NCBI GenBank assembly: GCA_016176465.1
Contig: JACOXD010000003.1
Span: forward strand, 1,824-65,823
From: Candidatus Daviesbacteria bacterium
GTDB lineage: Bacteria > Patescibacteriota > Microgenomatia > Daviesbacterales > UBA10151
Direction: 5' to 3'
DNA: 64,000 nt
Part shown: in pieces, positions 17,547 through 47,306 of the stretch
How the letters are laid out: each line of letters starts with the position of its first letter
Position numbering within the stretch: position 1 is the first letter of the stretch
The notes under the pieces: model-generated
Database searches by the model: none
Told to the model about the DNA's origin: nothing
What the model saw: the letters and a program-made list of their open reading frames with translations, nothing else
Translations under genes and position numbers: made by a program

Positions 17547-18407
17547 ATGCTTTTTGACACTCATACCCATTTAAACTTTAAAGCTTTTGAAAATAATTTT
17601 GATCAGGTAATTAAAGACTCTCTTAAAGCAGGGATTAGATACATAAACATTGTTGGAACAGATATAGATTCATCAAAAAAAGCAGTCGAAATTGCAGAGA
17701 AATATGTAGATACCTTTGCTTCAGTAGGCATACATCCTCATCACATTTTTAATTATCTAACCAGTAATGTCATTCTGAGTGAAACGAAGAATCTAGGTCC
17801 TTCCTCCCCTAAGGGGCCCGCGCTTCAGGATGACTTACAGGAATTAGAAAAATTGTTAAAGAATCCAAAAGTAATTGCTGTTGGTGAAACTGGAATGGAC
17901 CGGCATATATATAAAAAAACAAGATATAAGAGATACGGGATAAGTGATAAGTTAATAAACTTGCAAAAAAAGGCTTTTATTGCTCAAATAAAGTTAGCTT
18001 TAAAATACCAAAAATCTTTAATTATACATAACAGAGATGCAGTAAATGAGTTATTAGAAGTTCTTACATCACACCTCGGAGGTGTTACAAAACTTAGGGC
18101 AGTTTTTCATTGTTGTGAGCCTGATCAAAAACTCCTAGATTTTGCTATTAAAAATAAAATTTACATAGGAATAGATGGAGATGTTACATATGATAAAAAA
18201 AAACAAGAATTTATTAAAAAAATCCCTCTAGATTTATTAGTTTTAGAAACCGACTCCCCTTTTTTAACACCAGAGGGTTTAAAAAATCCAAATATACCAT
18301 CAAATTTAAATTATATAGCTGAATATATTGCAGAAAAGTTAAAAATTGATATAAAAAAGTTAAAAGAAGTTACTTTGAAGAATAGTAAAAAGTTATTTAA
18401 GCTTTAA
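17547..18407 (+). CDS. tatD: TatD-family metal-dependent DNase/hydrolase carrying an in-frame 22-codon palindromic insert
   Basis: MLFDTHTHLNF, GIHPHH and GETGMD motifs. The insert encodes VILSETKNLGPSSPKGPALQDD. Confidence 0.8.
   Translation: MLFDTHTHLNFKAFENNFDQVIKDSLKAGIRYINIVGTDIDSSKKAVEIAEKYVDTFASVGIHPHHIFNYLTSNVILSETKNLGPSSPKGPALQDDLQELEKLLKNPKVIAVGETGMDRHIYKKTRYKRYGISDKLINLQKKAFIAQIKLALKYQKSLIIHNRDAVNELLEVLTSHLGGVTKLRAVFHCCEPDQKLLDFAIKNKIYIGIDGDVTYDKKKQEFIKKIPLDLLVLETDSPFLTPEGLKNPNIPSNLNYIAEYIAEKLKIDIKKLKEVTLKNSKKLFKL
17769..17834. repeat. short palindromic repeat element, in frame in tatD
   Basis: gtcattctgagtgaaacgaagaatc...cttcaggatgac. The terminal inverted repeats gtcattctga / tcaggatgac flank a GC-rich core (cccctaaggggcccgcgc). 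66 nt, 22 codons. Confidence 0.6.
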
Positions 18408-18446
18408 GTTGTATAATCATTATAATTTTTATAATCGTTATAACTA

Positions 18447-20186
18447 TTATTTTTTAAATTGCATTTTATACATCTCTTTTAACTCTTTAACGGTAGTTGC
18501 ATCTTCTGCTACCTTGTCTTTTTCTCTAAATTTAACTAGCCTTGGAAATCTAAGGGCATAGCCTATCCCATCTTTATCTTTACCTGCACTATGGTTTGGG
18601 GATCTGGTTATTTCATCTGCTAAAACTTCAATTACAATTTCTGGTGCTATCCAAACAGAAGGTTCTAAAATAGAGTTGACTCTGGCAGGTTTTTTATCTA
18701 CCTTAATTTTATCTGCCCTCTTGTGAATCTCTCTCCATTCTTCATCCGTTAAACCTGTACCAATTTTGGAAACAGTTACAAATTCATCTTTTTGAGAATC
18801 ATAAACTCCAACAAGCAGTGCTCCTGCACCAAAGGATGCTCTTTTACCCCTACCATAGATATATCCCAAAATTACACAATCTATTGTATCTTTAAGCTCT
18901 CCATCTGAGTGTCTTTTTAGTTTTACCCAATTAAAATTTCTTGCCCCTGCCTCATATGTTGAATCCACTCTTTTTGCAATTATACCCTCTAAACCTTTTG
19001 TTAAAGCATCTTGAAAAAGCTCATTTAACCTTCTAATATCTGTCACAACTTCTCCAGGTTGTGGAATTAATACTTCATCCCCTTTAATGTTTTTTTCAAG
19101 AATTTTGATTCTTTCTTCTAGTGTCTCATCTATCAAAGATTTCCCATTTAGATACATTGCGTCAAAAACAAAAGCCCTAAGTGGAAGCTTTTTAGCCATT
19201 TCTTCTATGCCGTGTTTTCTTCTACGTTTTGTAGTTTCCTGAAATGGTAAAAATTCTTCAGACTCTGGATTAAAGGCTAGGGCTTCTGAATCAAAAATAG
19301 CTGAGTTGGCTTTAACTTGAGAGAGCACACCTTTAATAATATCAGGGAACATATGTGTTGTTTCCTCCAAATTCCTTGAAAAAAGTCTTACATCATTACC
19401 CTTTTTGTGAATTTGTACTCTAAAGCCATCGAATTTTTGCTGGATATGGGCGCGACCGCCAAATTTTTCCATTATTTTCTCAGCACTAGGCAATCTTTCA
19501 GCAAGCTGAGATCTTAATGGCTTTCCTACTTCTACTTTTAAATCCTTTACCCCTTTTAAGCCCTTTTTCCAAAGCGTTTCTCCAATTAACCCTAAATCAG
19601 AGACTTTATTATATGCTCCCTCCAAAAGTTTACGTTTTGATTTGTCCCCTAATTTTAGTTTTGCAAAAGAATCTAAAATTGTTGGATCACCAATGCCCAA
19701 TCTTGAGGTGCCCAGAGGAACTCTTATTAAATGCTTTGCCTCAATTGTGCTTGATTTTTTAAGTAAATCAGAAAGTGCTGAAACTTTATTTTCAACCGTG
19801 CCATCACCGGAAAATTTAGCGATTTTTAAAAGAGATTCAAAAACTTCTGTGACTGTCATCCCCGATTTAATCGGGGATCCATGTTTTTTTGAAGCGAGTT
19901 CCTCCGCCACAGATCCTAAATCCCCAACTCTTCCATATTTTTCCAAAACCTCTTCTCTATCAACGTTATATGCTCTGGCTATAGCAGCAGCAACCGACCT
20001 CTCCGCCATCCCTATCTCAACTGCCTCATAAAAAGGCCCTACTCTTCCTTGAAGTAAATAACTTACCATCGCAATCTCTTCTTTTTTAACCCTTCTGAAA
20101 AGCTCTCCTAAAATCTCAATCAATTTAAGTCTAGAGGAAGTTTCCTCTAACTTTTCAAAATACTCTGCTAATTTAGAAAAAGTCAT
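18447..20186 (-). CDS. ATP-dependent DNA ligase (archaeal/eukaryal Lig1-like)
   Basis: Motif I KFDGFRVQIH (KxDGxR), an adenylation domain, and an OB domain. About 579 aa. Confidence 0.85.
   Translation of the reverse strand: MTFSKLAEYFEKLEETSSRLKLIEILGELFRRVKKEEIAMVSYLLQGRVGPFYEAVEIGMAERSVAAAIARAYNVDREEVLEKYGRVGDLGSVAEELASKKHGSPIKSGMTVTEVFESLLKIAKFSGDGTVENKVSALSDLLKKSSTIEAKHLIRVPLGTSRLGIGDPTILDSFAKLKLGDKSKRKLLEGAYNKVSDLGLIGETLWKKGLKGVKDLKVEVGKPLRSQLAERLPSAEKIMEKFGGRAHIQQKFDGFRVQIHKKGNDVRLFSRNLEETTHMFPDIIKGVLSQVKANSAIFDSEALAFNPESEEFLPFQETTKRRRKHGIEEMAKKLPLRAFVFDAMYLNGKSLIDETLEERIKILEKNIKGDEVLIPQPGEVVTDIRRLNELFQDALTKGLEGIIAKRVDSTYEAGARNFNWVKLKRHSDGELKDTIDCVILGYIYGRGKRASFGAGALLVGVYDSQKDEFVTVSKIGTGLTDEEWREIHKRADKIKVDKKPARVNSILEPSVWIAPEIVIEVLADEITRSPNHSAGKDKDGIGYALRFPRLVKFREKDKVAEDATTVKELKEMYKMQFKK
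19855..19880. repeat. short palindromic repeat element (gtcatccccgatttaatcggggatcc), in frame in the ligase gene
   Basis: Near-perfect palindrome ccccgatt/aatcgggg after a gtcatc terminus. It encodes SPIKSGMT. The same KSGM(T/D) peptide and gtcatccccga motif recur in the GT4 gene. Confidence 0.5.
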
Positions 20187-20189
20187 AAT

Positions 20190-20759
20190 TTATTCAAGAT
20201 ATACTGTTAATCTTTTAGCCCCCTCTCTACTGTCAGGTAATGCTTCCGCAGTATAATGGATTCCAAGTCTATCATAAAGATTTATTGCCGCGGGCCGGGC
20301 ATTTGTCTGATAAATTTTAATTCCCAACCTCTTTAAGGTTTCAATTCTAATTCTTAAGATTTCTGTCCCAATACCCTGTTTTTGAACATCGGATCTTACA
20401 CTAATAAAAGTTTCATTTAGGGAATCTAGAGCACTATGAGGTGTTTTATTTATAACGACCATGCTATATCCCATTAGTTCACCCTGTTGATCCCTTGCTA
20501 AGACTATAGATGCAGGATTATTGTTGAGTTTTGCAGTTTTTACAGCAGTCAATGCTTTGCTATTTACATAGGCTGTTTCCCAGCTATCTTCCCATTTTTC
20601 AGTTTTACCTTCCACTTCCTCTAAAGCTAAGTTTATTGATTTGTCACTAAATTGACGTAAATCTTCTAGATCTTGATCAGTGATCTCCTGCGCTCCCTTT
20701 ACTTGAAATTGTATGCGGGTCAGTAACTCACTATTTTGCGGACTAGACTCATCAACCAT
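20190..20759 (-). CDS. GNAT-family N-acetyltransferase
   Basis: Acetyl-CoA-binding motif VRSDVQKQGIGTEIL (R/Q-x-x-G-x-G/A). Confidence 0.7.
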   Translation of the reverse strand: MVDESSPQNSELLTRIQFQVKGAQEITDQDLEDLRQFSDKSINLALEEVEGKTEKWEDSWETAYVNSKALTAVKTAKLNNNPASIVLARDQQGELMGYSMVVINKTPHSALDSLNETFISVRSDVQKQGIGTEILRIRIETLKRLGIKIYQTNARPAAINLYDRLGIHYTAEALPDSREGAKRLTVYLE

Positions 20760-20806
20760 ATTACTAAAGAGAAGTTGATTATATAACGAAAATCTTCAAA
20801 TATTAC

Positions 20807-21883: not shown

Positions 21884-21886
21884 AGC

Positions 21887-22603: not shown

Positions 22604-22648
22604 TGTATAATCAGTTGATTATACAATTCCTGCAGAATTACCGCAAAA

Positions 22649-23071: not shown

Positions 23072-23086
23072 CTTTTTTACCTTTAA

Positions 23087-24028: not shown

Positions 24029-24083
24029 ATCTTTTTATCGTTAAAGTATCTGCAAAGCCTGTTGCGAAAATGCCAAAAATCCT

Positions 24084-24392: not shown

Positions 24393-25505
24393 TTACTTAT
24401 CAGTTATCTCGTTTAGCTGCCCGTTTTCAACACTAAAAATATTTGCCTCTTTCAGCTTATCTTTCAAATAATAATCCAATTCTATAGCAGTAATTATAGT
24501 TTGTTGTAACTCAGTTAAAGCAATTACATGCTCTCTATGATTTAAATCTAACTCAGAGAATACATCATCCAAAAGTAAAATAGGACGCTTACCTAAAATT
24601 TTTTCTACAAATGAAGCTTCAGCTATTTTTAGATCTAAAACTGCTGTCCTTTGTTCTCCTCTAGATCCAAAATGCGCTAGGTCTTTATTTTCTCCATTAT
24701 CTAGTGCAATAAATTTGAAATCATCCCTGTGCGGTCCTATCAAAGAAGAAGCAGATGCTATTTCTCTTGGAAGATACTCCTCTAACCTTTCTTTTGAAGT
24801 TTCACTTTTTAAATATTCAAACTGATAATCTCCAAATTTTTTCTCAACACTGTTAATGAATTTAAAAAAATCTGCCCTCTTGAGAGTAACAATTTGCCCT
24901 AAATTAATTTGTTGGTTTAGCCAAAAAGTTAGCTCATCCATTTTGCCAAGCCCTTCTTTAATTTTTTTTAAGATTCTATTTTTTTTAATTACAACTTCTT
25001 CATACTGCGTTAAAACTTTTTTATACTCCTTATCAATTTGGGCTAAAGTTAAATCAATATGCCAGCGCCGCAAAGACGGGGCTCCTGTAACTAAATTAAT
25101 ATCTTCAGGTGAAAAACTAACCACAGCTAAATTTCCAATATAGTCTAAAATTCTTTTTGGAATCTTATTTACCTTTACTCTTTTTGTTAATCCTCTTTGT
25201 TTATCCTGAGGGCTTCGACTGAGCTCAGCCGAATGTCCGGAGCCGAAGGACATCATTACAATTTCTAAAGATGTTTTATCTTCCAACTCCCCCTCCACCC
25301 TTAAAACAACTTGTCTTTTTTTAATTAACTCCTCATCTTTATCCGCTTTAGGGGATTTCGTAGTTGCTAAAAAATAAATGCTTTCCAAAAAATTAGATTT
25401 TCCCTTTGCATTATCCCCAACTAAAATAGTTAAGGGAGATTTAAATTTAAAATCCAATTTAGAATAAGTTCTAAAATTAGTAAGTTTTAGAGAATTTAAA
25501 AACAT
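24393..25505 (-). CDS. recF: DNA replication and repair protein RecF (carries an in-frame palindromic insert)
   Basis: N-terminus LTNFRTYSKLDFKFKSPLTILVGDNAKGKSNFLESI (Walker A) and an ABC-ATPase signature region. Confidence 0.85.
   Translation of the reverse strand: MFLNSLKLTNFRTYSKLDFKFKSPLTILVGDNAKGKSNFLESIYFLATTKSPKADKDEELIKKRQVVLRVEGELEDKTSLEIVMMSFGSGHSAELSRSPQDKQRGLTKRVKVNKIPKRILDYIGNLAVVSFSPEDINLVTGAPSLRRWHIDLTLAQIDKEYKKVLTQYEEVVIKKNRILKKIKEGLGKMDELTFWLNQQINLGQIVTLKRADFFKFINSVEKKFGDYQFEYLKSETSKERLEEYLPREIASASSLIGPHRDDFKFIALDNGENKDLAHFGSRGEQRTAVLDLKIAEASFVEKILGKRPILLLDDVFSELDLNHREHVIALTELQQTIITAIELDYYLKDKLKEANIFSVENGQLNEITDK
25204..25254. repeat. GC-rich palindromic repeat element, in frame in recF
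   Basis: tcctgagggcttcgactgagctcagccgaatgtccggagccgaaggacatc, with a perfect ctgagctcag palindrome. It shares ctgagctca / cgaagggctt with the PolA copy at 34250. It encodes SFGSGHSAELSRSPQDK. Confidence 0.5.
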
Positions 25506-25506
25506 C

Positions 25507-27314: not shown

Positions 27315-28490
27315 TCAAGACTTAATATTTTCATTTACTAACTCTAAAACTTCCTTTTTAAACTTATTCTTAGAAAATTTTTCTGCATGTTTTCTAAGAA
27401 AAGATGAACTATACTTATCTTGATCAAATTTTTCTAATACCTTAACTAGTTCCTCTACTTTTGCCTCCTTGAAAAACTCACCTGTTTTCCCATTAATCAT
27501 AGTTTCTAAATACCCTCCTGCTTTAACAGCTATTACAGGGGTACCTGAGGCAAATGCTTCGACTACTGTTATTCCAAAATCCTCATCCTCAGATGAGACA
27601 ATTAACGCCTTAGCATTGGAAAGTAAACTTACTCTTTCTTCATCCGTTACTTCTCCTAAAAACTCAACATTTTTCCCTGCAAAAGCTTTTAACTCATCCA
27701 TTTGTGGCCCCACTCCTGCCACTTTTAATGGTAAATTCAATTTAGTTGCTGCTGCAACAGCTATCTCGGTCCCTTTCCCTCTCACTAATCTTCCCAGTGA
27801 TAAGAAATACTCACCTTTATCTGTCATCCCCGACTTGACAACCGAAGGTTGCAAGGTTTTAAGCGTAGCGAGAGTTCTTATCGGGGATCTATTAGATTCC
27901 CGCTTTCGCGGGAATGACGAAATATCAACCGGCGGATAAATTACCAAAGAGTCTCTTCTATAGAATTTTTTAATTCTTTCTTGAACATTTTTAGAATTAG
28001 CCACTAAGATACTTGGCCGCTGTGATACTTCAAAATCCCAAATTCTTAAAAAGTGGTTTAAAATTTCCCCTCCAATTCTGGTTAGCATATGCTTTTTATA
28101 GTTAAAAGAAGTGGTATATCCATATAAATATCTGGGAGGAGTATGGATGTAGCTAATGTGTAGTTGACTGGGTTTAGTTAAAACAGCTTTAGCAAAGTAA
28201 GTATTACAAGATGAAATCACTACATCAAAGGAAGATAAATCAAAACTTTCAAAAATTTTCTTTGCAAAAATCCTAGAGGGTGAAATAAATTTTGAGGCAA
28301 ATGGAAAGTTTTGCAGCCAGGAGGATCTTAAATCCCAATTTTTTATCCTATTTTTATGAGGGCCTAACTTATCTAAATTATAGTAAGCAGTAAAAATTGG
28401 AGCTTGCGGGAAAATTTCATGTAAAGCCTCTAGAACTCGCTCAGCCCCACCAAATTCCCATAAATAATCATGTACCAAGGCAACTTTCAC
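27315..28490 (-). CDS. GT4-family glycosyltransferase with a 32-codon palindromic insert
   Basis: MKVALVHDYL ... GGAERV at the N-terminus. The E-x7-E region (VSSEDEDFGITVVEAFASGTPVIA). Confidence 0.75.
   Translation of the reverse strand: MKVALVHDYLWEFGGAERVLEALHEIFPQAPIFTAYYNLDKLGPHKNRIKNWDLRSSWLQNFPFASKFISPSRIFAKKIFESFDLSSFDVVISSCNTYFAKAVLTKPSQLHISYIHTPPRYLYGYTTSFNYKKHMLTRIGGEILNHFLRIWDFEVSQRPSILVANSKNVQERIKKFYRRDSLVIYPPVDISSFPRKRESNRSPIRTLATLKTLQPSVVKSGMTDKGEYFLSLGRLVRGKGTEIAVAAATKLNLPLKVAGVGPQMDELKAFAGKNVEFLGEVTDEERVSLLSNAKALIVSSEDEDFGITVVEAFASGTPVIAVKAGGYLETMINGKTGEFFKEAKVEELVKVLEKFDQDKYSSSFLRKHAEKFSKNKFKKEVLELVNENIKS
27823..27918. repeat. palindromic repeat element, in frame in the GT4 gene
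   Basis: gtcatccccgacttgac...tcggggatc...ttcccgctttcgcgggaatgac. Terminal inverted repeats gtcatcccc / gggaatgac, with an internal perfect palindrome ttcccgc-tttc-gcgggaa. 96 nt, 32 codons. Confidence 0.55.
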
Positions 28491-31236: not shown

Positions 31237-32130
31237 ATGGATCTAGCTAAAAAATTAGCCTTTGCTCCAATATTTTTAATCTTTTTAGCATTATTTTTCT
31301 ACCTATTAAACCCTTTGCTTAAATCAACAGATTTACTTTTTTTAACTGATTTGAGTAATTTAACTCAGATTTTATTTTTAGTATTAACCTTGGTTTTGAC
31401 TTCCCTCTTTTTTGCAGTATTTGCATCTCTTGCCTCTGATCTAAAAATAGTTTTAGCAATTGGAGCGATAGCTTCCAGCCTATCTATTATCCTACTTCCT
31501 TTACCCATTAACTTTTTAATAGCAGTTTTAATTTTTGCTTCTATTTTTTTAAGTTATTATTTACTTTCACAAAAATTAAAAAGTTATCTAACTTTTCAAC
31601 CCACACTTTTAATTTCTCCCACCGCAAAACACTTTGCAGCAACATTAATAATTTTATCCTCTCTAGCTTATTTTTTATCTGTTAACCAGGAAATCAAACA
31701 AAATGGATTTAAAATTCCAGATAGTTTACTAGAAACTGCCTTAAAGTTTATACCTCAACCTCAAGAAAGCGATCTTAACCTACCCACAATAAACTCAAAT
31801 CAACTAGATTTATTAAGAGAAAATTCAAATCTTCTGGAGCAGCTTGGTTTGGGCTCTGGTGTTTTAGATTCCCTTCCCTCTAAAACTGATAGTACTCAGG
31901 ATTTAATAAAACAAACTATTAATTCTCAAATTCAAAGTTTAATTAAACCCTACTTAGATTGGATTCCCCTAATACTAGCTTTACTCTTTTTTATCACTTT
32001 ACAATCAATATTTTTTATCTTTTCTTTTTTAATATCTCCTTTGATTTGGTTAACTTTTTATCTTTTAGAAAAAACAGGCTATATTAGGTTTGAGATAGAG
32101 ATGAGAGAAGCTAAAAAAATGATGGTTTAA
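31237..32130 (+). CDS. polytopic membrane protein, hypothetical
   Basis: Multiple hydrophobic helices. Leu/Ile/Phe-rich. Confidence 0.5.
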   Translation: MDLAKKLAFAPIFLIFLALFFYLLNPLLKSTDLLFLTDLSNLTQILFLVLTLVLTSLFFAVFASLASDLKIVLAIGAIASSLSIILLPLPINFLIAVLIFASIFLSYYLLSQKLKSYLTFQPTLLISPTAKHFAATLIILSSLAYFLSVNQEIKQNGFKIPDSLLETALKFIPQPQESDLNLPTINSNQLDLLRENSNLLEQLGLGSGVLDSLPSKTDSTQDLIKQTINSQIQSLIKPYLDWIPLILALLFFITLQSIFFIFSFLISPLIWLTFYLLEKTGYIRFEIEMREAKKMMV

Positions 32131-32169
32131 ATTTCTAGCTTTTCCATCTCTCCCCAGTTTGGGCAATTA

Positions 32170-32550
32170 CTATATTAGCTTTAACCTACTAATTCCTTTA
32201 AAATCTTTTTTGTTTAAAGTAAAAAGTTTGGCTTTATTCAAAATAGCAGTAGCAGCAATTGCTGCATCTGCAAATTGGACTCTCGGTCTAATATCTCTCA
32301 TGATTTCTCCAGCTAGTTTGGCTACTTCGTATTCATATGGTAATATCGTCAACATATTGATTAATTTCAGGAAGAATTCTTCTTTACGAGCCACTTTACT
32401 GCTTTCACCTACATAGAGTTCTTGGATGGTAATTATTGAAACAGCAAAGTCCTGTGCTGGCATAAACTCGAGTAATTTTGCTAAATGACTATTTTTGTTT
32501 CCTAGCTGTCTGATGTAGTCAATTATTAAATCTGTATCTAATATTACCAT
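32170..32550 (-). CDS. vapC: PIN-domain toxin VapC
   Basis: MVILDTDLIIDY (conserved Asp), FADAAIAATA, and a size of ~126 aa. Confidence 0.75.
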   Translation of the reverse strand: MVILDTDLIIDYIRQLGNKNSHLAKLLEFMPAQDFAVSIITIQELYVGESSKVARKEEFFLKLINMLTILPYEYEVAKLAGEIMRDIRPRVQFADAAIAATAILNKAKLFTLNKKDFKGISRLKLI

Positions 32551-34114: not shown

Positions 34115-36385
34115 TCAAATATCGAGCTTTTCCATCTCTCCCCAGTTTGGCCCTACTTTTAAATCTACAACCACTGGAACAGAAAGAGCTAGTGCATTTT
34201 CCATTTTTTCTCTAATCATTTTAGCAGCTTTTTGGACTTGTGGTGAGCAGTTCGGCCCTGAGCTCACTGCCGAAGGGCTTGTCGAACCATCACACTCAAA
34301 TAAAAGCTCATCATGAACCTGGAGGATCATTTGGCAGGAGGAAGATTGCTTCGCTTCGCTCGCAATGACGTCATTGCGAGGAGTCTTTGACGACGAAGCA
34401 ATCTTATTGAGCGCTTTCTCTATTTCCACCATAGCTTTTTTGATCATATCAGCAGCAGTCCCTTGTACTGGCATATTAATAGCCATCCTCTCTCCTGCTG
34501 CTTTGAGCATCTTATTAGCGGCTTGCAACTCTGGGATATATCTTTTTCTCCCCCAAATTGTTTCAACATATCCTTCCTTATATCCTTGATCCAAAATTTT
34601 CTCCATCCACTCTCTTACCTTTGGAAACTGGGCAAAATATTCTTCTATATAAAGTTTAGCAACTGCATACTCTACTCCTAGTTGTTGAGATAATGCTCTT
34701 GGACCTTGACCATATAAAGTGGCAAAGTTCATAGTTTTTCCAACCATTCTTTGTTCTTTAGTGACTTTCTCAATTGGTACTTTAAATATCTTTGAGGCTG
34801 TGCCTGCATGGATATCCAATCCTTCTTGGAACACTTTTTTTAATCCCGGATCATCTGCTAAATGAGCCATGACTCTAAGCTCAATTTGAGAATAATCAGC
34901 AGATAATAAGACTTTCCCTTTTGGAGCAATAAAAGCTTTTCTCATCTCCCCTCCTAAATCACCTTTAACAGGAATGTTTTGAAGATTCGGATTTTGGGAG
35001 GAAAGCCTTCCTGTGGCAGCACCTTCTACATTAAACGTAGAGTGGATTCTCCCCTTTTTATCAGTATATTTTGGGAGAGCATCAATATAGGTTGAGATTA
35101 GTTTAAATAAAAATCTATACTCTAAAATTAAGGGGATTGCTGGATGCGCAGCTTTTAGCTCATTTAGCGTTGCTTCATCTGTTGATCTTCCTGTTTTAGT
35201 TTTTCTAATAACTGGTAAATTTAATTCATCAAATAAAACTTCTGATAGTTGCTTTGGGCTATTTAGATTAAACTGATGTCCAATATATGAGTAAATTTTT
35301 TTCTCTAAGCCTTTTAATTGTCTCTTTAGTTTAACCTCAAGCCTTTTTAGAAATCTTAAATCTATTAAAACTCCAAACTTGCTCATTTTTTGTAAAACTT
35401 TATCTGTTTCTAAATCAAGGTCAGTGGTATAAGAGTTTTGTACTCTGTCATTCTGATGGTCCACTGGACCAGAAGAATCTAATTTAGATCCTTCGCTTTC
35501 GCTCAGGATGACACTTATTCCTGGTAATCTGGAAATTAAACTTTTAAATTCCAACTCCTCAAAGAGTTTCTTAGCTTGTTCTATATCATAATCAGAAACT
35601 CGACATTTGGCTAAATCCAACCTTATAGGTGCATTTAAATCCAGGGTAGCTAATTTTTTGGATAAGGTTGCTGATTCAGCACCTTCTGCAAGTAGAGTTT
35701 GCATTCGCTCTGGTAAAGTTTTTAAGTTTTCTTTCTTGTAGATTTTTTCAACTGTCTCAAATTGTTTAATTAACTTAGTTGCAGACACCTCACCAATTCC
35801 TGATACTCCTGGGATATTATCTGATTGGTCCCCTGCCAGGCCTTTATAATCCACCATTTGCTTTGGCATAAAGCCATACCTGGCTAAAAATTCATCAACC
35901 CCATAAATCCCAACATCTGCTAGAGTTTTCCTAGGCATCAAAACTTTTATTCTTTTATCAATAAGTTGCATAATATCTCGATCCCCTGTCACTACAATTA
36001 CTTCTAGATTTTTCTCTTTTTTAGTAGCCTGCAAAGCTAGGGTGCCTATTAGATCATCAGCTTCAAACCCAGAAAGAGAAAACTCCGGAATGTTTAAAGT
36101 AGAAATAACTTCATGAACTCTTTTATATTGAGAAGATAAACCATCATCTGCTGGGCCCCGGGTAGCTTTATACTGGGTATATTGCTGGTGTCTAAAGGTT
36201 GGTCCTTTCTCATCCCAAGCAATCCCAATAAAATCAGGTTTTAAATCATTAATGGACCTTAAAAGCATTGAGGTAAACCCATAAACAGCATTAACTAATT
36301 CCCCACTAGAGGTAGTTAATGGAGGTGTTGCATGATAAGCCCTATGCAGCAGCGCGTTGCCGTCTATCAAAACTAAACGTTTCAT
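34115..36385 (-). CDS. polA: DNA polymerase I (5'-3' exonuclease plus polymerase domains), carrying three in-frame palindromic inserts
   Basis: N-terminus MKRLVLIDGNALLHRAYHA (FEN domain). Motif A around SADYSQIELR, motif B KTMNFATLYG, motif C QVHDELLFE. Confidence 0.9.
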   Translation of the reverse strand: MKRLVLIDGNALLHRAYHATPPLTTSSGELVNAVYGFTSMLLRSINDLKPDFIGIAWDEKGPTFRHQQYTQYKATRGPADDGLSSQYKRVHEVISTLNIPEFSLSGFEADDLIGTLALQATKKEKNLEVIVVTGDRDIMQLIDKRIKVLMPRKTLADVGIYGVDEFLARYGFMPKQMVDYKGLAGDQSDNIPGVSGIGEVSATKLIKQFETVEKIYKKENLKTLPERMQTLLAEGAESATLSKKLATLDLNAPIRLDLAKCRVSDYDIEQAKKLFEELEFKSLISRLPGISVILSESEGSKLDSSGPVDHQNDRVQNSYTTDLDLETDKVLQKMSKFGVLIDLRFLKRLEVKLKRQLKGLEKKIYSYIGHQFNLNSPKQLSEVLFDELNLPVIRKTKTGRSTDEATLNELKAAHPAIPLILEYRFLFKLISTYIDALPKYTDKKGRIHSTFNVEGAATGRLSSQNPNLQNIPVKGDLGGEMRKAFIAPKGKVLLSADYSQIELRVMAHLADDPGLKKVFQEGLDIHAGTASKIFKVPIEKVTKEQRMVGKTMNFATLYGQGPRALSQQLGVEYAVAKLYIEEYFAQFPKVREWMEKILDQGYKEGYVETIWGRKRYIPELQAANKMLKAAGERMAINMPVQGTAADMIKKAMVEIEKALNKIASSSKTPRNDVIASEAKQSSSCQMILQVHDELLFECDGSTSPSAVSSGPNCSPQVQKAAKMIREKMENALALSVPVVVDLKVGPNWGEMEKLDI
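34250..34288. repeat. palindromic repeat element in polA
   Basis: gttcggccctgagctcactgccgaagggcttgtcgaacc, an imperfect inverted repeat (gttcggccc / gggcttgtcgaac). It shares ctgagctca with the recF copy. Confidence 0.45.
34344..34403. repeat. palindromic repeat element in polA (20 codons, in frame)
   Basis: gattgcttcgcttcgctcgcaatgacgtcattgcgaggagtctttgacgacgaagcaatc. Terminal inverted repeats gattgcttcg / cgaagcaatc, and a central perfect palindrome cgcaatgacgtcattgcg. It shares ttcgcttcgctcg with the SucC copy. Confidence 0.6.
35472..35512. repeat. palindromic repeat element in polA
   Basis: gaagaatctaatttagatccttcgctttcgctcaggatgac, about 90% identical to 46840..46880 in the SucC-like gene. 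It encodes SVILSESEGS. Confidence 0.65.
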
Positions 36386-41768: not shown

Positions 41769-41823
41769 GGGCGAAATATACCATATTAGCCTTGGAAAAA
41801 CCAGGGGTCTAACTTAAAAAAAA

Positions 41824-43159: not shown

Positions 43160-43179
43160 TTGAGGCTAAAAAAAGCGAA

Positions 43180-43797
43180 TTAGGATCTTGCAGTTTGTTT
43201 AGTTTGGCTAAGGACTCTCTGTTTGACTGCATTAACTACTGCTGAAACTTTGCCTGTCCATGATCTTTTAGGAGCAACTCCATCTACCCTTTTACCGCGC
43301 ATTTCTACCCCATTAATTTTAGGTTCAGGAAACCCTTCAATAACTCCATTTGCAACATGGATTCTGACAAGACCTGTACGCTGAAAAGTAAGCACTGCTG
43401 CATCTACTGGAGGTGGTTCATTGGGAGCTGTTTTGATCCCATTTATACGAACAAAAGACTCTCCATCTGGCAACCTAGCAATTAAAGAATCAAATCTAAG
43501 TATACCGTTTCTCCCATCAAAAAATAATTCTTTCGCGGTTACATATAATAATCTCTCTGATCCAGTTAAGCCTTCTGTACCACTAGGGTATAAGTTTAGG
43601 CCATAAACAAACTCACCTGATTCATTAACTCCTACTAATTCCACAGGAAGTCTTACTCCTGCCTGCTCCTCTGTAATCTGGCTACCAAGAGGGTAATCAA
43701 ATCTCCCTCTAATAACATCACCGACATTAATATCCGCAGGCGAGACCTGGTTTAAAGGAAGTTCAATAGTTTGTAATGACTCAACTTTTAAAGACAT
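43180..43797 (-). CDS. hypothetical protein
   Basis: 205-aa ORF with no motif. Confidence 0.4.
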   Translation of the reverse strand: MSLKVESLQTIELPLNQVSPADINVGDVIRGRFDYPLGSQITEEQAGVRLPVELVGVNESGEFVYGLNLYPSGTEGLTGSERLLYVTAKELFFDGRNGILRFDSLIARLPDGESFVRINGIKTAPNEPPPVDAAVLTFQRTGLVRIHVANGVIEGFPEPKINGVEMRGKRVDGVAPKRSWTGKVSAVVNAVKQRVLSQTKQTARS

Positions 43798-43867
43798 AAT
43801 TTTAATTTAACCTATAGTGCTATTATAGCACAAGGAGTAAACTTTGGTCAAGCTAAAGTTAACTTCA

Positions 43868-44566
43868 TTAGGGTGAACTTATGGGGCTAGCAGTATTGTT
43901 AAGGTAATGAGCACAAAGCCCAGGTGTTCTGGCAATAATAAACACTGCATTAGCTAACTTTGCTTCCCAGCCAAAGCTACAAAGTACAACAGCAATAGCT
44001 GCATCTATATTAGCAGGCAAAGTTATCCCTTTTTGAGCTTTAAGCTCTGCTTCTAAATCTTTAGCTACTTTAATAAATTCCCCACCAAGTCCTGCTTCCT
44101 CAAGCTTTTTAAAAATTAGCTGGGTCCTAGGATCAGCCTCTTTGTAAACTCTATGCCCAAACCCAGGCATCCTTTTCCCCTCTTTTAAATATTCTTCTAC
44201 CAAATTTCCTATTTCGTATTTCGTATTTCGTATTTTATATAGAATCTCCATACAAGGTTCTATTGCACCCCCATGAGACTCATTTATCTGTAAAATCCCA
44301 GCTGCAATAGCCTCAGATAAAGTTTTTCCATCTTTTGCAGCATTAACTGTTGCTACTCCAGATGGAGAGTTTGGACCATGATCTATAGAAAGATTTAAAA
44401 TAAGCTCAAATATTTTTTCTTCCTGCTTAGAAGGAGTTTTTTCTGATAAAAGTTCAAAAATTAGTGAGGCAAAGCTTCTCTGCTGAGAGATCTCCAAATG
44501 ATTTTCTTCCCCAAACAATGCGGGTTTGCTTTCATCATTATCTTGATGTGTTATTGTCCTAGCCAT
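43868..44566 (-). CDS. truncated citrate-synthase-fold protein (citryl-CoA lyase-like module)
   Basis: Citrate synthase signature MPGFGHRVYK and GPNSPSGVA. At 232 aa it is about half a citrate synthase, like the ATP-citrate-lyase CCL module. Confidence 0.6.
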   Translation of the reverse strand: MARTITHQDNDESKPALFGEENHLEISQQRSFASLIFELLSEKTPSKQEEKIFELILNLSIDHGPNSPSGVATVNAAKDGKTLSEAIAAGILQINESHGGAIEPCMEILYKIRNTKYEIGNLVEEYLKEGKRMPGFGHRVYKEADPRTQLIFKKLEEAGLGGEFIKVAKDLEAELKAQKGITLPANIDAAIAVVLCSFGWEAKLANAVFIIARTPGLCAHYLNNTASPISSP

Positions 44567-45460
44567 TTATAATGCTCCTTTCACTAAACTTGCTATTTGA
44601 TCAAAATCATCAGCTACTAAAACTCCTGCATCTTTTAAAATTTGCCTTTTTATATCTGGTTTCCCTCTATCCCCTTCAATTATTGCTCCTGCGTGTCCAA
44701 ATTGTACATCAGATGGCAAGCGTTCTGTAAATTCCCCACCAATATATGCAACCACAGGCTTTTTAATTTTACCCTGTTTTTTTAAGATACTTACTCTCTC
44801 CTCATAAGTTCCACCTAATTCACCAAAAATAACAGAGGCTTTTGTTTTAGGATCATCTTCAAGGGCCAACAAAAAGTCCCCAAAGTCAGTGCCAATTATC
44901 CTATCTCCACCAATCCCAACAGCCCAAGATATACCTAAACCATGGTTTTTTAAATGAATCCCAATTTCAGATGTCATCCCTCCTGATTTAGAAATAATAG
45001 CTACTTCTCCATCTATAAATGCTCTCTCAGGAGTTGCACCTCCAATTGAGCCTATCTTTATTTTTCTACTTGGACAAATCATCCCAACTGAGCTTGGGCC
45101 AACTAAGCTAATTCCATTTTTTTTAGCTAAAGCATAGATATAAGATTCATCCTTAGTAGGGACTTTTTCTGTAACAATGAGTATAAATTTTACTCCAGCC
45201 TCTATTGCCTCTACTGCTGCACCTTTTACAAAAAGAGGTGGTACATAAAGGACTGTTCCATCAATTTCCCCCACAACTTCTTTGGCTTCTCCAACTGAAT
45301 TAAAAACTGGTAAACCTAAGATTTCTTGTCCACCTTTTCTAGGAGTTACCCCAGCCATAACTTTTGTTCCATAATCAAGCATGGTTGGTAAGGCAGTAGA
45401 CCCTTCAGAACCTGTAATACCTTGACCAATAATTTTTGCTCCCTCTGGTAAAAGTAACAT
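44567..45460 (-). CDS. succinyl-CoA synthetase alpha-like subunit (CoA-binding, phospho-His)
   Basis: GITGSEGS (CoA-binding Gly loop) and the phosphohistidine loop QFGHAGAII. Confidence 0.8.
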   Translation of the reverse strand: MLLLPEGAKIIGQGITGSEGSTALPTMLDYGTKVMAGVTPRKGGQEILGLPVFNSVGEAKEVVGEIDGTVLYVPPLFVKGAAVEAIEAGVKFILIVTEKVPTKDESYIYALAKKNGISLVGPSSVGMICPSRKIKIGSIGGATPERAFIDGEVAIISKSGGMTSEIGIHLKNHGLGISWAVGIGGDRIIGTDFGDFLLALEDDPKTKASVIFGELGGTYEERVSILKKQGKIKKPVVAYIGGEFTERLPSDVQFGHAGAIIEGDRGKPDIKRQILKDAGVLVADDFDQIASLVKGAL

Positions 45461-46095
45461 TATTTAACAACCTCCTGTGCTTGTATACTGTAAAGTTGAG
45501 AAGGCTTTTTTTCTGGATATTTTTCTAAGTACTTCTTAACTATATTGAAACCTAAAGTATAACCAGTCCATTTAGGAATGTTTCTATCCCCCATTCCAAA
45601 AAACCATTCGTTATGATCGTATTCTTTTGTAAATTCCTTTTTAGCTAACTCACTAAACTTTTGTAGTTGTTTTTCAGTTAATGCTAAGTCCCATTTTTCT
45701 GGTTCGCCATCTAAATATTCCATTTCAAAATGGTCTGCCAAACCTTCGCTTACAAGAGCTTCAAGTAAAGTCTTACCATACCCAGGATTTTGCCAGCGAA
45801 TTGCATGATGAAGTTCATGTGCAAGAATTCTAGGCAAATTTTTAGCAATAGAGTTATTAATATTAGGGAATTTGGGATCTAAATAAAGATTAATAAGATA
45901 AGTGTTTTGAGCATATCCTCCAATTCCTAGATGTTCTATCGCTCCCAATGGATTGTCTTCAACAATAACGTCTAAATCAGGCAAAGGAAGTAATTGTACA
46001 ACTTCACTTTTAACTTTTTTTATAATTTCTTCAATTTTTTTTGAGAATGGAATTAATCTACCGCTAGCTTTTAATATATAGATTCCTCCGTTCAT
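45460..46095 (-). CDS. HExxH-motif protein (DUF2268-like putative Zn hydrolase)
   Basis: The only motif is LAHELHHAIRW. It sits between the SucC-like and SucD-like genes with a start/stop overlap. Confidence 0.4.
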   Translation of the reverse strand: MNGGIYILKASGRLIPFSKKIEEIIKKVKSEVVQLLPLPDLDVIVEDNPLGAIEHLGIGGYAQNTYLINLYLDPKFPNINNSIAKNLPRILAHELHHAIRWQNPGYGKTLLEALVSEGLADHFEMEYLDGEPEKWDLALTEKQLQKFSELAKKEFTKEYDHNEWFFGMGDRNIPKWTGYTLGFNIVKKYLEKYPEKKPSQLYSIQAQEVVK

Positions 46096-47306
46096 AAATT
46101 TTTCCTTTGGGCATATTCTTTAGCTAAATCAACTATTACTTTTGCACTCTCAGCTATAGATGTTTCTTGACCATAAAGGTGCAAATCAAAATCTTTTACT
46201 TTTTTTAACATCTCAAATGCTTCCTCGTCCCTTGGTCCTCCTCTTCTTATCACAATAGGATAATCAGGTTTTGAAGTAATTTTTCTTAATGCGTCTAAAA
46301 ATCCAGATAAAGTTTCATAGATATCTGTAAAGTTAGCTACTCCTCCAACTACCCATAATCCATTTAAATTAGGCTTAGAAAGTACAATTTGAGTTAATTT
46401 TTCCACCTTCTCTTTGGGAGGATTGCCAGAGTACTCTGTATAGTTTGCAGGCTTTCCACCTATTTTAAATAAAGCATCCATTGCAGTTAAGGATGCCCCA
46501 CCACCTGAAGCTAAAACTGCTATATCACCATCAAAATCAAAATAAGTTGAACCTGCTACTCCTCTATAATCTTCTTCATCTATTTTTTTAGCTTCAATTT
46601 CTCTATCTGATGGAGTATAACCTGGGACTGCTCGAGGTGGATACTGTTGCCACTCCTCATGTCTTTTGATAGCACTATCATCTAATTTTATCTTTGCATC
46701 TAGTGCTACCCAACCATTTTTTGTTTTAACCAAAGGATTAATCTCTAAAAGTAAACAATCTTGTTCAAAAAAAAGGTTAATCAGCTTTTCTAAGATGTCA
46801 TTCTGAACCCTTCGCTTCGCTCGAGGGTAAACTCCGTGAAGAATCTCTAAGTTGGATCCTTCGCTTTCGCTCAGGATGACAGATTGAGTAATTGGATCTA
46901 CCGGAAAACTTTTTACTCCTCTTTCTTCTATTCCTATCCCTCCTTTATTGGAAATATTTAACACAGGTCCCCTTGTATCAGTATCATAAGAAAGAGAAAC
47001 ATAGTATTCCTTTGCTATATCTACTTTTTCTTCTACCAACACCTTCTCAACTTTTTCTTTATTGATTACTTTACTAAAAAGATCCTTTAAACTAGACGCT
47101 ACACCCTCTATGCTATCCTCTACTATTATTCCTCCTGCATCTGCTCTTTTTCCTGATAGCACTTGGGCTTTTAAAACTACTTCTCCTGTCATTCTGAGGG
47201 CGAAGCCTGAAGAATCTAAATCAGAGGATTCAATAAGTTGGAAGTTGGGAATATTTATCCCAGCATCTTTAAGTAGTTTTTTCCCCTCATATTCATAAAG
47301 AATCAT
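46092..47306 (-). CDS. succinyl-CoA synthetase beta / ACL-beta-like ATP-grasp subunit with two in-frame palindromic inserts
   Basis: MILYEYEGKKLL (ATP-grasp N-terminus), LLEINPL, GGGASL...PANYTEYSGNP. Confidence 0.75.
   Translation of the reverse strand: MILYEYEGKKLLKDAGINIPNFQLIESSDLDSSGFALRMTGEVVLKAQVLSGKRADAGGIIVEDSIEGVASSLKDLFSKVINKEKVEKVLVEEKVDIAKEYYVSLSYDTDTRGPVLNISNKGGIGIEERGVKSFPVDPITQSVILSESEGSNLEILHGVYPRAKRRVQNDILEKLINLFFEQDCLLLEINPLVKTKNGWVALDAKIKLDDSAIKRHEEWQQYPPRAVPGYTPSDREIEAKKIDEEDYRGVAGSTYFDFDGDIAVLASGGGASLTAMDALFKIGGKPANYTEYSGNPPKEKVEKLTQIVLSKPNLNGLWVVGGVANFTDIYETLSGFLDALRKITSKPDYPIVIRRGGPRDEEAFEMLKKVKDFDLHLYGQETSIAESAKVIVDLAKEYAQRKNL
46797..46880. repeat. composite palindromic repeat element (28 codons) in the sucC-like gene
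   Basis: gtcattctgaacccttcgcttcgctcgagggtaaactccgtgaagaatctctaagttggatccttcgctttcgctcaggatgac. Terminal inverted repeats gtcattctga / tcaggatgac. It encodes SVILSESEGSNLEILHGVYPRAKRRVQN. Confidence 0.65.
47188..47216. repeat. short palindromic repeat unit in the sucC-like gene
   Basis: gtcattctgagggcgaagcctgaagaatc is the same unit as the tatD copy gtcattctgagtgaaacgaagaatc. It encodes (L)DSSGFALRMT. Confidence 0.55.

What the first reader, a model, noticed from the sequence alone, without database searches (positions are those of the whole stretch)
17769..47216. Family of short GC-rich palindromic elements inserted in frame into multiple essential genes (RPE-like)
At least ten copies of a related repeat lie in an otherwise AT-rich genome.
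- Termini: gtcatYctga ... tcagRatgac inverted repeats.
- Cores: ttcgcttcgctcg, cgaaagcgaagga, ctgagctca.
- In-frame copies, with their encoded inserts: tatD 17769-17834 (VILSETKNLGPSS...); ATP-ligase 19855-19880 (SPIKSGMT); recF 25204-25254; GT4 27823-27918 (...VVKSGMTD); polA 34250-34288, 34344-34403 and 35472-35512 (SVILSESEGSKLDSSG...); sucC-like 46797-46880 (SVILSESEGSNLEIL...) and 47188-47216 (LDSSGFALRMT).
- One intergenic copy at 5959-6010.
- The 35472-35512 and 46840-46880 copies are about 90% identical at the DNA level although they sit in unrelated genes.
- The PolA inserts fall between conserved motifs, around QVHDELLFE, where E. coli Pol I has no extra residues.
This is the signature of a selfish palindromic element that survives by in-frame insertion into surface loops, as described for Rickettsia RPEs. 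I am not aware of a description for this lineage.
Basis: seen in the sequence. Interest (0 to 1): 0.85.

Follow-up and report, generated by a model that had tools for sequence, protein, structure and literature searches.

The report
Tagged hairpin repeats inside CPR genes
The window, from a Candidatus Daviesbacteria (CPR) genome, carries short GTC-tagged hairpin repeats of an already described class that includes Rickettsia RPE-4 and RPE-6, sitting in frame in flexible loops of DNA polymerase I, DNA ligase, TatD and other genes; the class is known, but this host lineage and how far one subtype is spread across bacteria appear not to have been reported.

Summary
The window holds 11 units of the form (T/C)GTC-AT[stem]-loop-[stem]AT-C, against about 2 in shuffles. 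Three further untagged relatives share a CTGAG...CGAAG core. All 11 tagged units lie in ORFs, mostly as inverted dimers of 60-96 nt, every one a multiple of 3.

Orthologs from other Daviesbacteria either lack the inserts or carry different units at the same hot spots. In an AlphaFold model the PolA inserts fall in low-confidence coil.

This is not a lineage-specific novelty. The units meet most of the defining features of the CGTC-tagged REPs of Di Nocera et al. 2013, though most copies depart from the stem and loop sizes that paper gives. That class includes Rickettsia RPE-4 and RPE-6 and Neisseria dRS3. It was already reported inside genes, notably DNA replication and repair genes, including the same Pol I linker. 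No transposase is known for it.

The commonest subtype here, GTCATYCTGAGCGNAGCGAAGRATC, occurs letter for letter in more than 20 bacterial phyla and in viral contigs, mostly between genes.

What may be new:
- the CPR host;
- almost purely intragenic residence in a genome that is 94% coding;
- nucleotide-level conservation of the stems;
- a striking, post hoc, enrichment in DNA-metabolism genes.

How the elements move is unresolved.

The parts
17769..17834 (+). Tags-outward dimer in tatD, 66 nt, 22 aa (VILSETKNLGPSS...QDD). The left unit 17769-17793 is canonical. The right unit is degenerate: its 3' arm reads AGGAC instead of AGGAT and its loop is expanded.
   Evidence: The TatD alignment to 1j6o shows 27 aa against 5 aa at this point. 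The predicted DNA fold is weak (z = -0.13).
19855..19879 (+). Single unit GTC-ATCCCCGAT-TTA-ATCGGGGAT-C in the ATP-dependent DNA ligase gene (peptide GSPIKSGMT). The tagged strand is antisense to the mRNA.
   Evidence: DNA hairpin of -8.8 kcal/mol, z = -3.9. It lies in a variable loop of the ligase DNA-binding domain and adds no net length against 2hiv.
25204..25254 (.). Untagged, degenerate relative in recF. It has an ATCCTGAGGGC...GCCGAAGGA frame with a CTGAGCTCAG palindrome inside.
   Evidence: About 10 extra aa against RecF 5z69. Weak fold (z = -0.1). Membership is probable, not proven.
27823..27918 (+). Tags-outward dimer in the GT4 glycosyltransferase gene, 96 nt. The left unit 27823-27889 has an 8-bp stem ATCCCCGA/TCGGGGAT and a 47-nt loop that carries a further hairpin. 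The right unit 27895-27918 (-) is GTCATTCCCGCGAAAGCGGGAATC, the canonical CGTC-1 form.
   Evidence: Fold of -22 kcal/mol, z = -5.2. The right unit encodes SFPRKRES in the host frame; in another frame it reads DSRFRGND, as listed for R. conorii CGTC-1.
34250..34288 (.). Untagged hairpin GCCCTGAG...CGAAGGGC in polA, just after motif C (QVHDELLFE). It is a net +30 nt found only in this genome among the 120 homologs.
   Evidence: In L002 the flanking codons GGT TCG ACA ... TCA CCA CAA GTC are conserved around an empty site. +14 aa against Taq. pLDDT below 50 at aa 705-709.
34344..34403 (.). Tag-to-tag dimer in polA loop 2, 60 nt, 20 aa (KIASSSKTPRND|VIASEAKQS). Units are 34344-34369 (-) and 34370-34403 (+).
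   Evidence: Fold z = -5.8. +20 aa against Taq. Shared with L001, where 75/75 aligned nt are identical in a gene that is 74.7% identical overall, and with L245, where the stems are intact and only one loop differs. pLDDT below 50 at aa 669-681.
35447..35512 (.). Tags-outward dimer in the polA linker between the 5' nuclease and polymerase domains, 66 nt (VILSESEGSKLDSSGPVDHQND). Units are 35447-35479 (+) and 35487-35512 (-).
   Evidence: Fold z = -4.75. The site is a hot spot that holds different units in L001, L002 and L245. pLDDT below 50 at aa 292-316. Its right unit and spacer are 94% identical to 46846-46881.
46797..46880 (.). Tags-outward dimer in the SucC/citryl-CoA-synthetase-like gene, 84 nt, 28 aa. 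The loop of the left unit 46797-46845 holds a nested inverted hairpin, ACCCTTCGCTTCGCTCGAGGGT. The right unit 46855-46880 (-) is identical to 35487-35512.
   Evidence: This is a hot spot with many different element peptides among 120 homologs. The site is empty in L244 and holds a single different unit in L243.
47188..47216 (+). Single unit GTCATTCTGAGGGCGAAGCCTGAAGAATC in the same gene (peptide DSSGFALRMT).
   Evidence: A hot spot: other homologs have DSGQARMT, ERGSRMT or SSGLIIRMT here. Net +5 aa against L243 and L244.
5959..6010 (.). Degenerate or composite relative at the stop codon of ORF 3223-5961, extending downstream (GTCCTGAGCG...CTGAGTGAAGTCGAAG...CGAAGGAT). It is the only copy not wholly inside a gene.
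   Evidence: No stable hairpin (z = +0.43). Membership rests on the shared core only.

Best explanation
**What they are.** These are CGTC-tagged REP-type elements, the superfamily that contains Rickettsia RPE-4 and RPE-6 and Neisseria dRS3. Each unit is a 24-35 nt imperfect palindrome. It has a (T/C)GTC tag, a stem that always opens with A-T then T-A, a short loop, and a closing C plus a short tail. The loop is often GNA or GAAA, closed by G-C pairs next to a tandem G.A. Units usually pair up, tags outward, into composites of 60-100 nt.

**How they come to sit in genes.** They are non-autonomous repeats copied to new sites by a machinery that is still unknown. It probably acts on the extruded single-strand hairpin. 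Tracts carrying an element may also pass between relatives by homologous recombination. This Daviesbacteria genome is about 94% coding, so nearly every landing site is a gene. A copy survives only if three conditions hold: the added length is a multiple of three, the frame has no stop (4 of the 6 frames are open), and the site is a disordered linker or surface loop. Such copies are translated as filler peptides (VILSE..., VIASEAKQS, SFPRKRES, ...SGMT, ...RND).

**Shown:**
- family membership;
- excess of copies over chance;
- covariation in the stem;
- insert or empty differences between orthologs;
- hot spots;
- loop placement;
- distribution across many bacterial phyla.

**Inferred:**
- mobility;
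- the single-strand DNA intermediate;
- translation of the peptides;
- neutrality of the peptides.
For: - **Anatomy and excess over chance.**
- **Stem covariation in 15 Daviesbacteria units.** Pairs 3 to 5 change only by double substitutions and are never unpaired. None of 500 shuffles reaches the observed score, and slid controls are far lower.
- **Covariation across phyla.** The sixth base pairs with the twenty-second as T..A in 89 units and C..G in 68, with 4 mixed, although the pattern allowed all four combinations.
- **Published definition and members.** Tag often TGTC, an A-T/T-A start to the stem, a tail, inverted dimers, RPE-4 and RPE-6 and dRS3 as members, intragenic copies in Pol I, ligase, uvr and rec genes, and no dedicated transposase (PMC3733652).
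- **Ortholog comparisons.**
- **Prevalence among homologs.** Signature peptides occur in 51 of 120 PolA and 32 of 120 SucC-like homologs, against 12.5 and 6.7 in shuffled controls.
- **Frame preservation.** All five dimers are 60, 66, 66, 84 or 96 nt.
- **No strand bias.** The tagged strand is sense to the mRNA in 5 units and antisense in 6. This points to a DNA-level element.
- **Loop placement.** Low-pLDDT coil at all three PolA sites.
- **Distribution.** The exact 25-mer occurs in at least 120 genome stretches from more than 20 phyla and in at least 120 viral contigs. One of the viral contigs carries a phage portal gene.
- **Location elsewhere.** Only 24 of 151 units lie inside long ORFs in other phyla.
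- **RNA families.** No Rfam family matches.
Against: - No transposase or other mobilising gene lies in the window (Pfam census). None lies between inverted units in ten sampled loci either.
- No target-site duplication was seen.
- No insertion event was caught within a population.
- Several copies fold weakly under nearest-neighbour DNA parameters. Those parameters do not, as far as I know, credit tandem G.A pairs or GNA loops.
- Stems and tags are conserved to the nucleotide in orthologous copies whose host genes are only 68-75% identical. Pure junk would not be expected to behave so. This hints at a constraint or at copy correction.
- The enrichment in DNA-metabolism genes (p about 1e-4) is not predicted by random insertion plus tolerance.
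Confidence: 0.78

Rival explanations
1. The hairpins are functional sites rather than passengers. On this reading they are DNA or RNA structures bound or processed by a conserved host protein, for example a replication, repair or topology enzyme or an RNase. They are kept in these genes because they regulate them or serve genome maintenance. Their spread is secondary.
For: - One 25-mer is identical to the nucleotide across more than 20 phyla with no transposase known (PMC3733652).
- Stems and tags are conserved while a loop drifts in orthologous PolA copies, even though third codon positions in the gene are only 54% identical.
- Four of five DNA-metabolism genes carry elements, against 2 of 57 others (Fisher p = 1.3e-4). 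Di Nocera et al. made the same remark independently.
- From memory: E. coli REPs bind DNA polymerase I, gyrase and IHF.
Against: - Most orthologs lack any given insert.
- The same site holds unrelated subfamilies in different genomes.
- Orientation relative to the mRNA is mixed.
- Copies decay (17794-17834, 25204-25254, 5959-6010).
- The enrichment is post hoc and rests on 6 host genes.
- No binding protein has been identified.
Confidence: 0.15
2. The segments are ancestral, lineage-specific loops of these proteins that merely look alike. Nothing was inserted.
For: - The hot spots are variable loops in all homologs.
- For the ligase copy and the first SucC copy there is no net length gain against distant homologs.
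Against: - Identical or near-identical DNA units sit in unrelated genes, in unrelated genomes and in other phyla.
- Empty sites keep conserved flanking codons.
- The stems covary.
- The shared peptides come from shared palindromic DNA, not from divergent codons.
Confidence: 0.02
3. The palindromes are made or kept uniform locally, by template switching at quasi-palindromes or by hairpin-templated repair. Variable loops then gather self-complementary DNA without any transposition.
For: - Loops of existing units hold nested hairpins (27823-27889, 46797-46845).
- An ortholog without a tagged unit has a perfect 24-nt palindrome at the same hot spot (L244 10079-10102).
- Arm-to-arm correction would produce covariation without selection.
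Against: - Local generation cannot explain the invariant strand-specific GTC tag, the A-T/T-A start, the tail, or a 25-mer that is identical across phyla.
- It cannot explain the 94% identity, spacer included, between the copies in polA and the SucC-like gene.
Confidence: 0.05

Closest known systems
CGTC-tagged REPs (families CGTC-1 to CGTC-4; Di Nocera, De Gregorio and Rocco 2013, BMC Genomics 14:522, PMC3733652), which include R. conorii RPE-4 and RPE-6 and Neisseria dRS3
   Same: - A (C/T)GTC tag.
- A stem that opens with A-T, T-A.
- A short loop and a C-containing tail.
- Inverted dimers with tags outward.
- In-frame intragenic copies encoding VIPAKAGI, DSRFRGND or SFxRKxES.
- Copies in Pol I (the same linker region), DNA ligase and other repair genes.
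- No associated transposase.
   Different: - Most copies here have only 5 Watson-Crick pairs, then a tandem G.A, then a GNA or GAAA mini-hairpin (CTGAG...CGAAG). The paper describes 8-9 bp stems with 4-5 nt loops.
- VILSEAK-type peptides are absent from the paper's intragenic list.
- The host is a CPR bacterium; the paper reports 5 phyla, mostly alpha-proteobacteria.
- Nearly all copies here are intragenic; there they are mostly intergenic.
Rickettsia palindromic elements, RPE-1 type (Ogata et al. 2000, Science 290:347; cited in PMC5896051 and PMC3733652)
   Same: Palindromic repeats inserted in frame in many unrelated, often essential genes of a small genome. They are tolerated in surface regions and decay over time.
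   Different: From memory, RPE-1 is about 100-150 bp and unrelated in sequence. The elements here are 24-35 nt units or 60-96 nt dimers of the CGTC type.
GTAG-tagged REPs, REPINs and their RAYT transposases (Nunvar 2010, PMC2817692; Bertels and Rainey 2011, PMC3116915)
   Same: Short tagged hairpins, inverted doublets, high copy number, and an inferred single-strand hairpin substrate.
   Different: The tag is GTC(AT), not GTAG. No RAYT or IS200-like gene was seen in the window or flanked by units. REPs of that kind are almost entirely extragenic.
Small dispersed repeats (SDR) of cyanobacteria (Elhai et al. 2008, Genome Res 18:1484; from memory, paper not held)
   Same: Very small (21-27 nt) hairpin-forming repeats that appear mobile, nest within one another and turn up in conserved genes, with no known transposase. 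The 25-mer here also occurs on Planktothrix, Calothrix and Oscillatoria plasmids.
   Different: Sequence relationship not tested, because the paper could not be read.
Bacterial MITEs with in-frame copies, e.g. Coxiella QMITE1 and QMITE2 (Wachter et al. 2018, PMC5896051)
   Same: Non-autonomous, with terminal inverted repeats, and occasionally extending or interrupting an ORF in frame.
   Different: From memory, MITEs are longer, derive from identifiable IS elements and make target-site duplications. None of these features was found here.

Membership tests
CGTC-tagged REP superfamily | Terminal tag CGTC (often TGTC) at one end of the palindrome | tested here: met
   All 11 units start with GTC. 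The preceding base is T in 7 and C in 4. Across phyla the preceding base is T in 81%.
CGTC-tagged REP superfamily | Stem whose first and second pairs are complementary A-T and T-A | tested here: met
   A-U in 15 of 15 and U-A in 15 of 15 units in alignment A2.
CGTC-tagged REP superfamily | Stem of 8-9 bp with a loop of 4-5 nt | tested here: inconclusive
   Met by 27895-27918 (8 bp, GAAA loop) and 19855-19879 (9 bp, 3-nt loop by the fold). The other units have 5 Watson-Crick pairs, then a tandem G.A, then a short inner stem with a GNA or GAAA loop, or enlarged loops.
CGTC-tagged REP superfamily | Short unpaired tail (consensus CCA) | tested here: inconclusive
   Tails here are C-TA(A/G), CCA or CTC. 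Across phyla the tail is C-T(79%)-C(56%). This is similar to the published consensus but not identical.
CGTC-tagged REP superfamily | Mostly arranged as inverted dimers | tested here: met
   Four tags-outward dimers, one tag-to-tag dimer and two singletons. 57% of units in other phyla have ATGAC within 150 nt downstream, against 15% upstream.
CGTC-tagged REP superfamily | Many dispersed copies per genome | not testable with these tools
   Only 64 kb of this genome is available, with 11 units (about 1 per 6 kb). Relatives have 1 to 10 units per 7-22 kb.
GTAG REP / REPIN-RAYT system | GTAG tag and a cognate RAYT (IS200-like Y1 transposase) flanked by the repeats | tested here: not met
   The tag is GTC. 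No Y1_Tnp domain occurs in the window's 62 ORFs. Genes between inverted units elsewhere are ordinary.
MITE derived from an insertion sequence | Terminal inverted repeats matching a parent IS, plus a target-site duplication | tested here: not met
   The dimers have inverted ends. However, no duplication appears at filled against empty sites and no parent IS was found.
Structured RNA family (Rfam) | Match to a curated covariance model | tested here: not met
   Only tRNAs reach the gathering score. Nothing overlaps the units at E up to 5.

The most novel reading that the evidence does not exclude
On this reading the CTGAG-GNA-CGAAG form of the GTC-tagged hairpin is one entity spread across bacteria. 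The sampled hits came from more than 20 phyla, plus viral contigs. Its sequence is held constant because a universal host enzyme of DNA replication or repair recognises or processes it. Its concentration inside polA, ligase, recF and tatD in this CPR genome, and inside Pol I, uvr, rec and ligase genes in Proteobacteria, would then reflect a functional or mechanistic coupling with those very enzymes rather than mere tolerance.
Probability: 0.07. Interest if true: 0.85.

Novelty: new member of a known kind. Interest (0 to 1): 0.42.

Why it matters
- **Annotation.** A good share of the length variation and the odd low-complexity peptides in CPR proteins comes from a known class of hairpin repeat. 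It need not reflect lineage-specific biology. This matters for annotating, aligning and modelling CPR proteins. About 40% of Daviesbacteria PolA homologs carry such peptides.
- **Reach of the class.** CGTC-type elements are extended here from a few, mainly proteobacterial, phyla to the CPR. One 25-nt subtype turns out to be conserved to the letter in a sample spanning more than 20 bacterial phyla.
- **An old open question.** What copies these elements, given that no transposase is associated? The gene-dense CPR genomes, and culturable carriers such as Hymenobacter, Mucilaginibacter, Pedobacter, Granulicella and Planktothrix, give material to test that.
- **An unexplained bias.** The repeated bias toward DNA replication and repair genes has no explanation and deserves a controlled census.

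Tried and rejected
- **General hairpin excess.** GC-rich islands and perfect GC-rich hairpins in general do not exceed chance in the window, so no such claim is made.
- **Literature search by sequence.** Searching for the DNA strings and peptides (GTCATTCCCGC, AGIQ, FAGMT, RGND) returned only noise.
- **Literature search for the lineage.** Searches combining 'palindromic element' or 'in-frame' with CPR terms, and REP or RPE terms with CPR terms, found no relevant paper.
- **Transposase search.** I looked for a REPtron-like arrangement, that is, a gene flanked by inverted units, in 240 loci. Ten candidate ORFs were MatE, an amidohydrolase, GroEL, a phage portal, NUDIX, CcmF or had no match. None was a transposase.
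- **Annotated names for the element.** A plasmid BLAST gave 12 records and no annotated repeat or mobile element.
- **Gene calls for the window.** The look-up of encoding contigs found no record for the window's own proteins, so I annotated the ORFs with Pfam directly.
- **Elhai 2008.** The paper could not be read.
- **Hammerhead, box C/D or kink-turn readings.** I considered these for the CUGA...GAAG core and dropped them, because orientation relative to the mRNA is mixed and Rfam finds nothing.
- **Not done.** I did not build a covariance model; the tagged-hairpin scan with shuffles and the pair counts already answered the question. The metagenome scan, one protein search and the representative search were left unused.

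Full report
**Source and hosts.** The PolA encoded at 34115-36385 (-) is 100% identical to a protein of a Candidatus Daviesbacteria MAG (CPR, Microgenomates). The window has about 36% GC. ORFs of at least 100 aa cover about 94% of it.
- TatD (17547-18407)
- ATP-dependent DNA ligase (18447-20186)
- RecF (24393-25505)
- a GT4 glycosyltransferase (27315-28490)
- PolA
- a SucC/citryl-CoA-synthetase-like ATP-grasp protein (46092-47306)

**The repeat.** Reading the copies side by side gives one architecture. It is GTC, then a stem that begins AT, then a loop, then the complementary arm ending AT, then C.

A scan for exactly this finds 12 instances, against 2.1 +/- 1.3 in shuffles. Eleven are convincing. 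The stems differ between copies but stay complementary: ATTCT/AGAAT, ATCCT/AGGAT, ATTGC/GCAAT, ATCCCCGA/TCGGGGAT and ATTCCCGC/GCGGGAAT.

On 15 distinct units from this and related genomes, pairs 3 to 5 change only by double substitutions and are never unpaired. None of 500 shuffles reaches the observed covariation score, and slid controls are far lower.

In most copies the next two positions are G.A and A.G, followed by a GC-closed GNA or GAAA loop (CTGAGCGAAAGCGAAG). From memory, GCGAAGC-type mini-hairpins are unusually stable in DNA. As far as I know, nearest-neighbour models do not credit this, which would explain why some copies fold weakly.

The core CTGAG...CGAAG occurs 9 times, against 0.8 expected. 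It links three untagged, partly decayed copies (5959-6010, 25204-25254, 34250-34288) to the family.

Units are arranged as:
- four tags-outward dimers: 17769-17834, 27823-27918, 35447-35512, 46797-46880;
- one tag-to-tag dimer: 34344-34403;
- two singletons: 19855-19879, 47188-47216.

The dimers at 35447-35512 and 46797-46880 share an identical right unit and a similar spacer (94% over 36 nt). They are therefore copies of one composite. Two left units carry further hairpins nested in their loops.

**In-frame residence.** All 11 tagged units are read through by the host ORF. The five dimers measure 66, 96, 60, 66 and 84 nt, all multiples of three. The tagged strand is sense to the mRNA in 5 units and antisense in 6. 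This argues against a strand-specific RNA role.

Against solved homologs:
- TatD has 27 residues where 1j6o has 5.
- PolA has +20 and +14 residues on either side of motif C relative to Taq.
- RecF has about 10 extra residues.
- In the ligase and at the first SucC site the unit replaces loop residues without net gain.

An AlphaFold model of PolA has mean pLDDT 80.9. It drops below 50, with no secondary structure, at aa 292-316, 669-681 and 705-709. These are the three element-encoded segments.

**Orthologs.** The length differences among 120 PolA homologs (67-78% identity, 703-774 aa) are concentrated at the same three places. The extra peptides there come from the same vocabulary: VILSEAKDL, VIASEAKQS, SVIPANAGIQ...SGMT...TPRND, DSGQARMT. 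The SucC-like family behaves the same way at both of its sites. Signature peptides occur in 51 of 120 and 32 of 120 homologs, against 12.5 and 6.7 in shuffled controls.

At the DNA level:
- L002 has an empty site with conserved flanking codons where the window has the 34250-34288 insert.
- L002 also lacks the loop-2 dimer.
- The linker holds a different dimer in each of four genomes.
- L244 is empty at the second SucC site, and L243 has a different single unit there.

No target-site duplication is visible.

The loop-2 dimer is shared with L001 and L245. Against L001 it is 75/75 nt identical, in a gene that is 74.7% identical overall and 54% identical at third codon positions. Against L245 (67.6% identical overall), the sense unit is 26/26 identical and the other unit differs only in its loop. 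Conservation is therefore at the nucleic-acid level. It could reflect selection on the hairpin or correction from other copies. The raised identity also extends a little into the flanks against L001, so recombinational transfer of the tract is possible too.

**What it is.** Di Nocera, De Gregorio and Rocco (2013, PMC3733652) sorted prokaryotic REPs into GTAG-tagged and CGTC-tagged superfamilies. Their CGTC elements have:
- a tag often changed to TGTC;
- stems of 8-9 bp that almost invariably start with complementary A-T residues;
- loops of 4-5 nt;
- a short tail;
- arrangement mostly as dimers.

The paper reports them in 5 phyla, mostly alpha-proteobacteria. Members include Neisseria dRS3 and R. 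conorii RPE-4 and RPE-6, and no dedicated transposase is known.

Their list of intragenic copies contains VIPAKAGI, DSRFRGND, WIPAFTGMT and SFLRKQES. It also contains dimers in the Pol I of Micavibrio (aa 304-325) and of R. palustris (aa 338-367), which is the same linker that is hit here.

The window's unit at 27895-27918 is GTCATTCCCGCGAAAGCGGGAATC. GT4 reads it as SFPRKRES, and another frame of the + strand gives DSRFRGND.

**Distribution.** The locus GC content there ranges from 0.29 to 0.68. Taxa hit include:
- Acidobacteriota
- Chloroflexota
- Nitrospirota
- Nitrospinota
- Bacteroidota, including isolates of Hymenobacter, Mucilaginibacter and Pedobacter
- Bacillota
- Planctomycetota
- Verrucomicrobiota
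- Gemmatimonadota
- Omnitrophota
- Fibrobacter
- Synergistota
- alpha-, gamma- and delta-proteobacteria
- Saccharibacteria, Gracilibacteria and other Patescibacteria

The free base N is the middle of the triloop. The sixth and twenty-second bases covary almost perfectly. Flanks extend the consensus to T-GTCAT...ATC-T-C, and 57% of units have a partner with tags outward.

Only 24 of 151 units lie within long open frames. Elsewhere the element is therefore mainly intergenic, as REPs usually are. Cyanobacterial and other plasmids carry it without any annotation. VILSEAK-type peptides are absent from the 2013 intragenic list. This subtype may therefore not have been catalogued, but I could not see that paper's figures.

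**Mechanism.**
- *Shown:* a tagged hairpin family with maintained pairing; presence/absence differences and turnover at hot spots; frame-preserving composites in disordered loops.
- *Inferred:* the units are copied in trans through a single-strand hairpin intermediate. In a genome with almost no intergenic DNA, only in-frame, stop-free copies in tolerant loops survive.

No mobilising gene was found in the window. None was found between inverted units in ten sampled loci either. This agrees with the literature.

**Unexplained.** Four of the window's five DNA-metabolism genes carry elements, against 2 of 57 other genes (Fisher p = 1.3e-4). By length, 6 of 9 insertion sites lie in 11.9% of the coding DNA (p = 1.7e-4). 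The category was chosen after seeing the data and the numbers are small. Even so, the 2013 paper made the same remark for other phyla. Together with the nucleotide-level conservation, this keeps a functional reading alive at low probability.

**Verdict.** The kind of element is already known. The CPR host, the almost purely intragenic lifestyle and the spread of one subtype across bacteria are additions to it, not a new category.

Noticed in passing
window 32129-32162 and 34117-34150: A 34-nt direct repeat, 94% identical. Both copies encode, on the - strand, the PolA C-terminus PNWGEMEKL(E/D)I followed by a stop. The 1,988 bp between them carry a PIN-domain gene (32170-32550) and two unannotated ORFs. 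It looks like a cassette inserted into the 3' end of polA that brought or duplicated a replacement gene end.
   Followed up: partly
window about 53316-53637, - strand: A tRNA gene split by an intervening sequence of about 250 nt in the anticodon region. The 5' half reads GCGGGGTAGAGCAGTGGTAGCTCGCGAGGCTCAAAA and the 3' half CTCGAGGTCGTTGGTTCGAATCCAACCCCCGCA. ARAGORN missed it and no Rfam intron model reached threshold. tRNA introns are reported for Patescibacteria (a bioRxiv 2025 title seen).
   Followed up: partly
window 9464-9557, inside ORF 9228-9773 (UPF0047): A 94-nt GC-rich stretch with a hairpin at 9480-9533 (8-bp stem). It coincides with about 29 extra residues relative to the Pfam model. 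It may be another, untagged palindromic insert.
   Followed up: no
L244 10079-10102; window 25219-25228 and 34258-34266: A perfect 24-nt palindrome, CAGAGCTCTGAGCTCAGAGCTCTG, sits at SucC hot spot 1 in an ortholog that has no tagged unit. The CTGAGCTCA core recurs in the window's recF and polA inserts (3 matches against 0.39 expected). This may be a second palindrome family or a shared loop module.
   Followed up: partly
window 54064-58631: A XerC/D-like tyrosine recombinase (54064-55005) and a weak VirD4/TraG-like coupling-protein match (56268-58631) lie next to tRNA genes (55442-55516 and the split tRNA near 53.5 kb). This may be an integrated element.
   Followed up: no
window 3223-5961: A 912-aa ORF built of diverged repeats of about 126 nt (42 aa), in 7 or more copies, with a weak DUF6242 match.
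   Followed up: no
window 34600-34100 compared with L001 and L002 (polA 3' third): A mosaic similarity pattern. The window is about 96% identical to L001 across the loop-2 dimer and motif C. Immediately downstream it resembles L002 rather than L001. This suggests recombination between lineages within polA.
   Followed up: partly
L056 (IMG/VR contig) 310-4796: A viral contig carries three units flanking an SPP1-type portal gene, so the hairpins also reside in phage genomes.
   Followed up: no
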